Of a DNA stretch of 64,000 nt, positions 15,001 through 18,000 are shown one piece after another (within the stretch, counting starts at the first letter, position 1; each line of letters opens with the position of its first letter). Where the stretch lies: NCBI GenBank assembly GCA_963820525.1, contig CAWGAA010000003.1, positions 896,001 to 960,000 of the forward strand. The letters are read 5' to 3'. Source of the stretch: an uncultured Spirochaetota bacterium (GTDB lineage: Bacteria > Spirochaetota > Spirochaetia > SZUA-6 > Fen-1364). Position numbers: made by a program.

Positions 15001-18000
15001 TTCTGAGACAGAGCGGTTTCCGGACCGCACGTGCGAACGCCGCGTGCTCCGCAGGCGTACGCTCATTGCAGGCTATTCCGCATCCCGTCCGAGTCGATGA
15101 GCGCGATCTCCCCCCGTCCGATCTCAATGAATCCACGCGCCTGCAGGTAGCCCAGGTGCTTGTTGACGGTCTCGCGGGTTACCCCTATCGCTTCGGCGAT
15201 CTCCTCCTGCGTGCGGCGCACCGTCGGCGGCGCCTGTGGGCTGTCGGGCGCCGCGCATTCAGACAGCAGATAGTGGACGAGGCGCGCAATCGGATGTGTG
15301 AGGCCGATCGCGCCGTGGAGTGTGTAGAGCCGGCGCGCGAGAGCGCGGAGGAAAAAGTCCTTCATGTCCGCGATGCGGAGAAGCCCACTGAACGCCGGCT
15401 GGGTGAAGGACAACAGGCAAATGGACTCCTCGGCAATCGCGTCGGTGAGGTAGGGGCTGTCCAGGAGGAGCTCCGCGACGCCCGCCCATTCTCCCCGGCC
15501 CAGCCTCCCGACGTCGATCGAGCTCTCGTCGGAACGGTACATGGTGGTCCGGATCGTCCCTGACAGAACGAGGAAGGCCACTTTCGCTCGGTCTCCCTGG
15601 TAGTACACCGCCTTCCCCCGCCGGAGGGTGAGGGGAACCCCCGATCTCACGATCGCGCGAAGGTCCCCTTCACCAAGCCGGCCGAACGGAGGGATATCCC
15701 GAAGACTTTTTCCGAGATCCGATACCATGCCTTCCATGGCATCACCCCAGAACGCCCATGAACGGCTCAAGGGTGAGGTACGGATAGATGACGACAAGTG
15801 AGATCTTCCCTTCCGCCCGGTCCTTCACCCATACGATGGCGATCATCTCATCCTGGTGGAGAGACGGGAAATTCGGCTCGCCGCGCGCCGGCGTATATGG
15901 CTTGAGGTTCAGATCCACGACGTTCTTCCATCCACCCCGCAGGCAGGAAAGGATCGTATCACGCCCCGATTGCGCGTCGAATACCGCCCGGAGGGCGCTC
16001 GCCTTCCTATAGAACAGGAACACGGGACTCCGATTGAACATCCCCATGTTCTCGTTCCACCACTTCTCGATGGATTGGCTGGCTTCCTTCGGCACCGGAT
16101 GCGCCGTCCCCTCTTCCTCCACCAGCATCTTTCCCATCGGCTTCGAGTACACTCTGGAGATTCCGCCGCTTTCTACGGGCGCCGGCCGCCATGCCACGTT
16201 TTCTGCAGCGAAACAGGCGAACTCCGCCTCCGGAAGCTGCGCAAGAGCCTCCCCATACGTGCACTGATCCACGCTGTCGACGAAAAAAGAATCCGGAAGC
16301 CTCACTGCCAGATTTCTCATGAAAGAGCCATGGATCTCCGCGATTTTCATGATGCAGTAAATAGAGAATTTGTCCGGCCTAAGGAAATCGTAGTCCTTGA
16401 CCTTGACTTCCGCAGCCCCCTTCTCCAAACGAAATCCGGACGCGCGCACATTCGACTCCCGGAACGCGGTCCCGTACGGTTCGGTGATCCGCATCCCCAT
16501 CTCCTCCCCCAGGCAGACCACCTTGCCGCGGGCCACTGGGATGCCCCCCACCAGGAGCTCCGCGTCCTCATCCGCGGAAAACAGCTTCCCGAGGCTGATA
16601 ATGCTCCTCGGCCCAACATCCTTGAGCTCGGCCGGGGACATCCGGATCGATCCCAGGCTAATGAGAGTCGGCAGAAGCTCGATCAGGTCGTCCTTGATTC
16701 CGGGCTCCTCGGGGGGCTGCTCGCGGTACGGCGCGGTTACGATCCTGGCGGCGAACACGCCCGCGATGTTCACGATGTCGCACCTGCCTATCCGCATGCC
16801 GTTGAAGAATAGCGTGGAAGGGTAGCCCGCCGTATGTGTGGTTCTCACCAAGTCACCCTTTCTTAGGGTGCTGGCCTCGAACGAGGAGATGTAGCCCTCG
16901 CCAATGCTCACGGTGAGCGTTCCCTTGGTTGTGAAAAAATCGTTCATATTTCGCCTCCTGCATTCAGTCTGTCCGTACCGTACAGCAGGGACGATCCATC
17001 CTCTATAAAAGGGCCGTGTGAAGCGCGATCACAGAGCGGCCTCACTGTGCGCGTGCCAACCCAACTGATAGCAAGTGCTGGCTTGCGCGCATCTTTAGTC
17101 GTCGTGAGGCAGGGAGCCTCGCGCAGCGCGCAGGTACGCGAAGGGCGTTTGCGCCAGGAAGTTGGACACCCGCGAGGTGTAGATGTCGGCGTAGCGCTCC
17201 ACCTGGCGCGCGAAAAGGCTCTTGTCGTTGCCCGCCCGCATGAGCGGGCCCCAGGTGGGGTTGCCCAGCTCTCCCGATGCCTTGGCGAGCGGCGAGATTT
17301 TCGCGTCCAGATCCTGGCTTTCCTCGTTGGCGTTTCGGATGGCCTCCTCCAGCTCCTCGGGCTTCGCCCCGAGCTTGGGACCGTACCCGTGCTGCACGCG
17401 CTGGCGGGCCAGGCGAAGCTGCGCGATCTTTGTGTCCAGCTCGGTCTTTCGGCTCATCAGATCGCGAAGCCGGGCATCGTTCTCGCGCGCTTTTTCCATC
17501 GCCATGATCTCGGGCTCGAGCTCGCGCAGGATGAGCCCCGTGCGCCAGCGCAGCATCTCCTTGCTCACGTGGACATCGCCGAAGAGGTGATCTCCGAGGT
17601 AGAGGATCTCGGCGCCCGAAAGGCCGAGGCTCGACTCCACGAGCTGGGCATCCCCACCGACGGTGACGCCGCCGGGCTCCAGCGGGCCGCGGTGCGGACG
17701 CAGGAGGCCCTGTTCCTCGTCGGTCACGCGGTAGGAGGCCTGGCGACCGGAGAAGAATCCCGGCTTGCGCGCTTCCACGATGATAAAATCGAAAAGCGCG
17801 CGCCACTTCATGGGGCCCGGCAGATAGCGGTCGAACGCGTAGCTCATCATGGACCGCGTGTACGCCCAGTCGGAGTTGGTGATCAGGAGCAGGCGCTTGC
17901 CCGCCGTCTTCTGGTCCTGAAGGGTGAGCGGGAGATCGGGGTCGAGCTCCACGAATCGATCCGGGTCCGCCATGATGAGCGGCTTGAGCTCGCTCAGGTT

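What a model noticed while it worked through the whole genome (the two positions that open the first line are those of the whole stretch)
15742..16947. Domain-permuted FliM-like switch protein: two SPOA domains placed before the CheY-binding and middle domains
A stand-alone 401-aa protein (g04330) has two tandem SPOA (FliM-C/FliN) domains at its N-terminus followed by a FliM middle domain, the reverse of FliM, and lacks the N-terminal CheY-binding peptide. It is a natural single-chain FliM(SPOA)-FliN plus FliM-M, a third kind of C-ring paralog in this genome, followed by a Crp-family gene.
Evidence so far: Pfam: two FliMN_C stretches then FliM start at 186-241; residues 178-239 and 332-401 match the genome's own FliM 31-98 and 160-230. 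Model pLDDT 89; Foldseek best hits are the engineered FliM(SPOA)::FliN fusion (E 9e-11) and FliM middle domains (E 2e-6). 59 clusters at E<=1e-45, most full length; 3 of 38 order genomes, the Crp neighbour kept in G061. Paper search 148: 0 hits.
(Added by a program. Inside this text positions count along the whole contig: contig position 896,001 is position 1 of the stretch shown here. "Call 12" and the like, gene names such as g00115 and contig names such as C1 are that model's own, and its searches are not shown. The text may have been shortened before it was handed on; [...] marks where a part breaks off. The agent that wrote the report below was given it as the finding of a first reader that could run no searches.)

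Follow-up and report, generated by a model that had tools for sequence, protein, structure and literature searches.

The report
Rearranged flagellar switch mimic with regulator
Some spirochete bacteria carry an extra, rearranged copy of the flagellar switch proteins that lacks the parts that grip the rotor and sense steering signals, encoded beside a dedicated gene regulator, which suggests an undescribed way to turn the motor down on demand.

Summary
The 401-aa protein is real: two SPOA domains, then a FliM middle domain, with 143 full-length relatives. Both SPOAs are FliN-type, so this is not FliM(SPOA)-FliN. Besides the CheY peptide, the FliG-binding GGXG loop is gone (0 of 104, against 107 of 112 true FliMs). 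The order matches a native contact between neighbouring C-ring protomers, in which FliM residues 34-45 bind the FliN2-FliN3 dimer of the prior protomer, here made into one chain. The gene forms a two-gene module with a dedicated Crp-family regulator (adjacent in 25 of 27 loci; in 401 sampled genomes the regulator never occurs without it). A CRP-type box lies upstream in 22 of 25 loci, at a fixed distance from a -10 element. No second target was found, and carriers are flagellated spirochetes with ordinary switch genes. Best reading (40%): a signal-induced, FliG- and CheY-blind mimic of the lower C ring that caps or poisons the switch. Rivals are a FliH decoy, an anti-activator of the regulator, a structural subunit, or a non-flagellar role. 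Nothing functional is shown, and the inducing ligand is unknown.

The parts
15742..16947 (-). Gene for the 401-aa FliN-FliN-FliM(M) protein (P0001)
16732..16923 (-). SPOA1 (aa 9-72), FliN-type. The family keeps the FliH-patch positions; this copy has Asn at the V113-equivalent position (aa 60).
16474..16677 (-). SPOA2 (aa 91-158), FliN-type; the A93-equivalent position is replaced by a short insertion
16372..16413 (-). YDFxRPD arm (aa 179-192), the counterpart of FliM residues ~34-47, which bind the FliN2-FliN3 dimer of the prior protomer
   Evidence: Model 189 aligns to Salmonella FliM 44 (179-188 extrapolated); motif in 83 of 104; role from 10.1101/2024.04.30.591856
15745..16371 (-). FliM-type middle (CheC-like) domain, aa 193-401; the chain ends here, with no FliM-C SPOA
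15997..16197 (-). Segment aa 251-317 that replaces FliM's beta3-alpha3-GGXG loop; poorly conserved (no position at 70%)
   Evidence: 65 model and 41 Salmonella residues unaligned
15063..15737 (-). Crp/Fnr-family regulator (224 aa, P0210): RETVN recognition helix, no cAMP-binding Arg, own conserved pocket residues
17017..17033 (-). CRP-type box TGTGA-N-TCACA, centred near -54.5. The spacer is 7 nt here and 6 nt in the relatives.
17004..17019 (-). Overlapping weak second box or third half-site (T[CT]A[TC][AG] 13 nt on), centred near -41.5; degenerate in this copy (3 of 10)
   Evidence: reading it as a class II site is inference
16977..16982 (-). Predicted sigma70-type -10 hexamer, 35 nt after the box
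   Evidence: xAnnnT at this offset in 18 of 21 loci, 0-5 at other offsets
16954..16959 (-). Ribosome-binding site AGGAGG
   Evidence: sequence

Best explanation
A two-gene, self-regulating module. The Crp-family protein senses an unknown ligand (probably not cAMP) and controls its own operon through the upstream box; its one identified output is the 401-aa protein. That protein is a one-chain copy of a native cross-protomer unit of the lower C ring: a FliN-FliN dimer, the FliM arm that locks into it, and the FliM middle domain. It lacks the CheY peptide, the FliG/CheY-binding loop and FliM's own SPOA. When induced it would dock on the FliM/FliY(FliN) spiral or the FliM-M wall, but could not hold FliG, respond to CheY-P or continue the spiral, so it would cap, dilute or destabilise the switch and lower motility or motor assembly. 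Shown computationally: anatomy, lost motifs, gene linkage, promoter conservation, no second target found. Inferred: regulator binds the box, arm sits in its own SPOA groove, docking on the ring, inhibitory effect.
For: Both SPOAs are FliN-type. The order FliN-FliN, arm, M matches the contact in 10.1101/2024.04.30.591856. Model 189 aligns to Salmonella FliM 44. pTM 0.87 for the whole chain fits a fixed SPOA-M docking. [LFMY]GG.G is in 0 of 104 against 107 of 112 FliMs, and RELTxxE-type motifs in 0 of 104 against 88 of 112. In the CW ring CheY binds FliM alphaN and loop alpha3-alpha4, the parts lost here. All 21 distinct carrier genomes tested have FliG-C and 20 have a further full FliM-M match. 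The own genome has one FlhA-family gene and one FliH, and no SctQ over cut-off. Crp is adjacent in 25 of 27 loci and the box is present in 22 of 25. The regulator is in 13 of 401 genomes, always beside the gene; the gene is in 14. The extended promoter pattern finds the operon in 5 of 5 genomes, with one extra site at one mismatch. L008 lacks the regulator and has the perfect box at the class II spacing, so the protein can be used without this regulator, as an output would be.
Against: No binding, localisation, expression or phenotype data. The family is far more divergent than FliM (mean column identity 25%; long branches), which may have erased ring-docking surfaces. Most spirochetes are flagellated, so co-occurrence with flagella discriminates little. 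No flagellar gene was recognised among the ORFs listed beside the gene. A self-closed unit could simply be soluble and never meet the ring. Degenerate targets of the regulator cannot be excluded. In this genome the box has a 7-nt spacer and the second box is weak, so the local copy may be mis-regulated or mis-assembled.
Confidence: 0.4

Rival explanations
1. A soluble decoy or alternative platform for the export ATPase: the FliN-like dimer binds the FliH N-terminus and draws FliH-FliI off the ring, so the induced protein slows flagellar export rather than switching.
For: The FliH patch of FliN (L68, A93, V111, V113, Y118; PMC7505661) maps on SPOA1. At least 4 of 5 positions are kept in 85 of 104 members, and at least 3 of 4 in SPOA2 in 94 of 104. 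The SPOA pair superposes on the FliH-bound fusion 4yxc (Z 13.1, rmsd 3.3, 142 aligned).
Against: These hydrophobic positions may be kept for the fold. This genome's copy has Asn at the V113-equivalent position. It does not explain why the M domain is kept.
Confidence: 0.2
2. The protein is the input of the circuit: a partner-switching anti- or co-activator that binds the Crp protein when it is not held at the motor, coupling motor state to transcription (as PipX does for NtcA; analogy recalled).
For: Tight gene coupling, with small gaps or overlaps in most loci. Congruent trees (Spearman 0.83 on patristic distances of 20 pairs, which are not independent). The regulator lacks the cAMP Arg.
Against: No target other than the operon was found, so the circuit would have no output. 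The protein persists without the regulator in 2 of 27 loci, whose genomes show no orthologue. The regulator's conserved W84, G86, E89, D99 and H141 align with the cNMP pocket region, which suggests a small ligand.
Confidence: 0.17
3. An exapted, non-flagellar protein: the switch domains were recruited as a scaffold or CheC-like enzyme for another process that the Crp signal controls.
For: Both switch-defining surfaces are lost. Fast divergence. No conserved neighbour other than Crp in the listed ORFs. Patchy range (5 of 92 genomes in the order).
Against: The conserved M-domain residues are FliM's own (YDFxRPD, H206, DQ, E233, W340, YP) and no new conserved site appears in the replaced segment. 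A CheC-type [DS]xxxExxN motif (recalled) occurs in only 6 of 104. All 21 genomes tested have FliG.
Confidence: 0.13
4. A conditional structural subunit, like C. jejuni FliN or the phosphatase-dead FliY, that braces or widens the ring and supports motility rather than inhibiting it.
For: Precedent for neofunctionalised SPOA paralogues in the C ring (PMC6946799). It carries the outer-side FliN2-FliN3 unit and the arm that lifts it.
Against: Its arm would compete with that of true FliM for the same groove (inference). It was not found in 387 of 401 genomes sampled.
Confidence: 0.1

Closest known systems
FliM (TIGR01397, PF02154)
   Same: CheC-like middle domain (Z 15-18, rmsd about 2.4, about 148 aligned) and the YDFxRPD arm
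   Different: No CheY peptide, no GGXG loop, no FliM-type SPOA; SPOAs are N-terminal; 17.2 bits against a cut-off of 219.6; outside the fli operon
FliN2-FliN3 homodimer plus FliM 34-45 of the next protomer in the Salmonella C ring (10.1101/2024.04.30.591856)
   Same: Same three elements: FliN dimer, arm, FliM-M
   Different: Three chains from two protomers in the ring; one chain here, without FliM-C/FliN1 or the FliG site
Engineered FliM(SPOA)::FliN fusion (PDB 4yxb, 4yxc)
   Same: Two SPOAs intertwined in one chain (Z 12.4-13.1)
   Different: Here both halves are FliN-type, natural, and followed by an M domain
FliY and the second FliN of Campylobacter/Helicobacter/Leptospira (PMC6946799)
   Same: Extra SPOA-bearing C-ring paralogue with a CheC-like domain
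   Different: Reverse order, two SPOAs, FliM-derived M domain, dedicated regulator
SctQ (SpaO/YscQ; TIGR02551)
   Same: Tandem SPOA domains in one chain (tandem layout recalled)
   Different: SPOAs are C-terminal in SctQ; 32.4 bits against 100.8; no second FlhA-family gene in the genome
Motor brakes and clutches that bind the C ring, e.g. FtgA of Actinoplanes (PMC11522434, abstract); YcgR and EpsE (recalled)
   Same: Proposed outcome: conditional shut-down of the motor through the C ring
   Different: Here the effector would be made of the switch's own domains and controlled by transcription
CRP/FNR family (closest sequence with a structure: M. tuberculosis CRP, E 2e-9)
   Same: Fold, RETVN helix, TGTGA-N6-TCACA-type site, class II spacing near -41.5 (PMC3688515)
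   Different: cAMP Arg replaced by Tyr, no conserved Cys cluster, apparently a single target operon

Membership tests
FliM | N-terminal CheY-binding LSQxEIDxL peptide | tested here: not met
   0 of 143 full-length members; 77 of 104 have only 8 residues before SPOA1
FliM | CheC-like middle domain | tested here: met
   hhalign probability 99.9 to a FliM alignment; Z 16.6, rmsd 2.6, 150 aligned
FliM | GGXG loop that binds FliG EHPQ (PMC4642947) | tested here: not met
   [LFMY]GG.G in 0 of 104 against 107 of 112; Q228-W340 span median 105.5 against 82 residues
FliM | C-terminal FliM-type SPOA | tested here: not met
   Chain ends within 10 residues of L400 in all 104; both SPOAs are FliN-type
FliM | Part of the C ring in the cell | not testable with these tools
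   No localisation or binding data
FliN/FliY | FliN-type SPOA | tested here: met
   102 and 103 of 104 score higher to FliN; hhalign E 7e-22 and 4e-21 to FliN against 1e-10 and 3e-9 to FliM-C. Still under the TIGR02480 cut-off, 47.9 against 84.05.
FliN/FliY | FliH-binding hydrophobic patch | tested here: inconclusive
   Positions kept in 85 of 104 for SPOA1, but this may reflect the fold, and this copy deviates at one; binding untested
FliY/CheC | Order M-then-SPOA and phosphatase motif [DS]xxxExxN (motif recalled) | tested here: not met
   Order reversed; motif anywhere in the domain in 6 of 104
SctQ | C-terminal tandem SPOA within an injectisome system | tested here: not met
   SPOAs N-terminal; under cut-off; one FHIPEP gene, in the flagellar cluster
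CRP/FNR superfamily (neighbour) | cNMP-binding domain plus Crp HTH | tested here: met
   PF00027 48.8 bits and PF13545 51 bits, both over cut-off; model pLDDT 93.4
cAMP-binding CRP | Phosphate-binding Arg | tested here: not met
   Aligned position is Tyr96; Y in 68 and C in 9 of 85, no Arg among the four commonest residues
FNR | Conserved Cys ligands of an Fe-S cluster | tested here: not met
   Best Cys column is 58 of 85, others 41 or fewer; none near invariant
Rex regulon (rival owner of the box) | Rex present in genomes that keep the box | tested here: not met
   PF06971 not found in 4 of 21 carriers (three 94-96% complete, one 83%) that keep the box

The most novel reading that the evidence does not exclude
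Spirochetes evolved an inducible 'poison subunit' from the switch itself: a one-chain capture of the FliN-dimer/FliM contact between protomers that terminates or uncouples the C ring. It is turned on by a single-target Crp sensor of an unknown ligand, through a promoter with two overlapping, mutually exclusive sites (-54.5 and -41.5), possibly with feedback by direct binding. That would be motor control by self-mimicry, a type I did not find in the ten paper searches.
Probability: 0.3. Interest if true: 0.85.

Novelty: new variant of a known kind. Interest (0 to 1): 0.68.

Why it matters
The C-ring brakes and clutches I know of are proteins unrelated to the switch. A conserved natural derivative of FliM and FliN that has lost exactly the FliG and CheY sites, with its own sensor, would show that subunit mimicry is used to tune motors. 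It is also a ready-made soluble model of the FliN2-FliN3/FliM arm contact seen in cryo-EM, and a probe of which contacts drive ring assembly and subunit exchange. The regulator is a Crp subfamily with a conserved non-cAMP pocket and one predicted promoter, so its ligand can be sought with a simple reporter.

Tried and rejected
Complex prediction of the Crp dimer with the protein gave no verdict (runs 0.51, 0.01, 0.20; mark 0.32; controls not folded); it is used neither for nor against binding. No RNA holder was listed. FliM(SPOA)-FliN reading: rejected. Origin by fusion of the accessory operon (SPOA-like, FliN-like, FliM-FliG), whose gene order equals the domain order: not supported. In a quick tree of 82 rows and 136 columns, 3 of 4 such fusions nest among ordinary FliMs and the family forms its own side (SH-aLRT 82, long branches); the careful search did not finish, and 30 of the 39 members with extractable blocks were used. 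Wider regulon: the simple box is about as frequent as its reversed control in 5 genomes (5-29 against 3-37), the best matrix hit elsewhere in the own genome scored 19.5 against 22.5-40.1 for the training sites, and the regions read showed no shared target. Stand-alone FliG-C-like genes as regulon members: no box directly upstream. Rex as required binder: rejected. Mobile carriage: no match in phages or plasmids; viral contigs gave 4 partial matches to residues 160-239 only. Taxonomy of divergent members: cluster look-ups of 20 proteins named no organism. The canonical-FliM motif counts were faulty (the pattern caught the N-terminal peptide) and were redone. hhalign and the model disagree on which part of aa 251-317 stands for beta3 and alpha3; neither restores GGXG. 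Earlier scan findings were not available, so none were used.

Full report
OBSERVATION. The ORF at 16947..15742 (-) encodes 401 aa. Pfam finds two FliMN_C stretches and a sub-threshold FliM start at 186-241; NCBIfam matches to FliN, SctQ, FliY and FliM are all under cut-off. The genome (5.05 Mb, 96.7% complete) also holds an ordinary fliM-fliY pair and an accessory operon with a FliM-FliG fusion. The model is confident (pLDDT 89.1, pTM 0.87). Residues 8-164 superpose on a SPOA pair and 193-400 on FliM middle domains.

FAMILY AND RANGE. A single-sequence search gave 64 proteins, the query included. A profile search gave 124 representatives at E<=1e-30. Of the 201 proteins then held, 143 are collinear and full length, median 402 aa. 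The gene was found in 14 of 401 phylum genomes and 5 of 92 order genomes. A looser class search gave 9 of 401: five whole genes, a contig-end fragment, a broken copy and two false hits on accessory operons. Range outside the phylum was not established. Trees of the protein and its Crp neighbour agree with each other and roughly with taxonomy, with G671 as a likely transfer; deep support is low.

ANATOMY. (1) Both SPOAs are FliN-type: 102 and 103 of 104 members score higher to a FliN profile (62 sequences) than to a FliM-C profile (99 sequences) built from the fetched loci. (2) The CheY peptide is absent in 143 of 143, and so is the FliG-binding loop. GGXG in FliM-M pairs with FliG EHPQ (PMC4642947, passages). 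[LFMY]GG.G occurs in 0 of 104 members and 107 of 112 ordinary FliMs; a bare GG.G occurs in 4 of 104, at scattered places. About 41 Salmonella and 65 model residues stay unaligned, which fits replacement of beta3-alpha3-loop by aa 251-317, a segment with no position conserved at 70%. (3) The arm YDFxRPD is kept in 83 of 104.

In the Salmonella ring, FliM residues 34-45 bind the central groove of the FliN2-FliN3 dimer of the prior protomer as an antiparallel strand (10.1101/2024.04.30.591856, passages). Model residue 189 aligns to Salmonella 44, so 179-190 is that arm by extrapolation, and the model has a strand at 183-185. The protein thus reads as FliN2-FliN3 of protomer n-1 joined to the arm and M domain of protomer n. 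This explains the order, the FliN identity of both SPOAs and the high pTM, but I could not inspect coordinates. The same paper (section 8) places CheY on FliM alphaN and loop alpha3-alpha4, both lost here, and not on FliN. PMC11087270 (passages) cites older work for a FliN site, so a residual CheY contact is not excluded.

OPERON. A Crp gene follows directly in 25 of the 27 distinct loci with a complete 3' end, not in L008 or L200 (the Crp profile was seeded from 13 such neighbours). In the same 401-genome sample the Crp subfamily occurs in 13 genomes, each time beside the gene, and in none of the other 388 (7 candidates scored per genome at most). The genomes of L008 and L200 show no orthologue. 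The regulator has the RETVN helix of M. tuberculosis CRP, but Tyr in place of the cAMP Arg. It conserves W84, G86, E89, D99 and H141; H141 falls near E. coli CRP S128 (numbering recalled). The fold search does not single out a subfamily. The ligand is unknown.

PROMOTER. A TGTGA-N6-TCACA-type box lies upstream in 22 of 25 loci with at least 90 nt of upstream DNA; four loci without usable upstream DNA were left out, and the pattern was widened after the first 14 loci. The misses are L194 (an 8-of-10 match), L200 and L088. Controls: 295 of 52,000 shuffles; 7 of 166 other ORFs, all seven being the same boxes seen from the gene itself or the opposite strand. In the own genome the window's site is the only exact match with a 6- or 7-nt spacer. 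A -10 element xAnnnT lies 35 nt after the box in 18 of 21 loci, against 0-5 at other offsets, which puts the box near -54.5. A second conserved element 13 nt on scores best as an overlapping box (mean 4.6 of 10; next offsets 3.6), centred near -41.5, the class II activating position (PMC3688515, passages). It is weak and may be only a third half-site or part of the -35 region. In L008, which lacks the regulator, the perfect box itself sits at the class II spacing. The core resembles a Rex site (recalled), but 4 of 21 carriers lack a Rex match and keep the box. No other shared target was found.

MECHANISM. A regulator whose only detected target is its own operon makes the 401-aa protein the likely output. 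Carriers have FliG (21 of 21 distinct genomes; 24 handles, three duplicates) and a further FliM-M gene (20 of 21; in G359 only a FliM-FliG fusion; the miss is 83% complete). The own genome has a single FlhA-family gene and FliH, so the flagellum is the only evident partner. A unit that can offer FliN-dimer and FliM-M surfaces but cannot bind FliG, sense CheY or extend the inner spiral would most simply cap or dilute the ring (0.40). Rivals: FliH decoy (0.20; patch from PMC7505661 and PMC6248999, passages, kept in 85 of 104), anti-activator of the regulator (0.17), non-flagellar exaptation (0.13), supportive subunit as in C. jejuni (0.10; PMC6946799, passages). Against all motor readings stand the strong divergence, the lack of flagellar neighbours, and the absence of any experiment.

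NOVELTY. Ten searches of the open-access library listed no title or abstract opening that describes this family; five were aimed at the family or its regulator (35, 52, 63, 78, 89) and one at orphan fliM copies (90). Subscription journals are mostly outside the library and I read no supplements, where gene tables could list it. Sources name members only as FliN, FliM or hypothetical; the ESM Atlas holds a 68-member 'hypothetical protein' cluster. I also saw passages of PMC7355467 and the abstract of PMC11522434. It fails the membership tests for FliM, FliY and SctQ, yet is built from their parts: a new variant of a known kind, with a possibly new mode of motor control. Interest 0.68.

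Noticed in passing
L001:6535-9640 (G000 C1:1090534-1093639); similar in L018, L092, L171, L172, L210: Accessory operon: an AraC-like regulator (label from my reading of the sequence), a 95-aa SPOA-like gene, a FliN-like gene and a 606-aa FliM(M)-SPOA-FliG fusion without the CheY peptide. A second, conserved kind of switch paralogue in spirochetes; in G329 it lies about 11 kb from the gene studied here.
   Followed up: partly
P0167, P0170, P0177-P0179, P0181, P0192, P0193, P0197: Natural FliM-FliN fusions in the normal order (414-455 aa), mostly with the CheY peptide.
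   Followed up: partly
P0180, P0186: About 790-aa FliM(M)-SPOA-SPOA-FliG chains: most of a C-ring protomer in one polypeptide.
   Followed up: no
window 17017-17033: The box has a 7-nt spacer where the 21 relatives with a box have 6; a true variant or an indel error in the assembly.
   Followed up: partly
window 13567-14957 (-): dCache-PAS-GGDEF gene downstream of the Crp gene is in pieces: a frame break within the Cache part, and a GGDEF domain that ends at profile position 99 of 161 and runs into an FtsX-like fragment.
   Followed up: partly
G000 C1:2688088-2688351; L218, L220, L221, L223, L224, L225: Small stand-alone FliG-C-like genes (85-325 aa) away from flagellar clusters, several beside sigma-factor-like or unrelated genes; no box directly upstream.
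   Followed up: partly
L212:6361, L216:5018; G299 C226, G014 C143 and C155: AT-rich TGTGAA-N4-TTCACA-type sites beside rex genes and a hydrogenase-like operon, probably Rex sites in these spirochetes.
   Followed up: no
L008, L193, L195: The palindromic box also lies within 200 nt of a divergently oriented ORF, which it might co-regulate; these ORFs differ between loci.
   Followed up: no
L169/L173 (G395 C8); P0060, P0061; L088: A broken copy in a genome without the Crp orthologue; M-domain-only gene calls on long contigs (frameshift or split gene unresolved); a copy without a box at a contig end.
   Followed up: no
ESM Atlas, rank 2: A 54-member FliMN_C/FliM cluster (358 aa) whose few classified members are mostly Uroviricota; a lead only (score 0.88). 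No phage match was found for this protein.
   Followed up: partly
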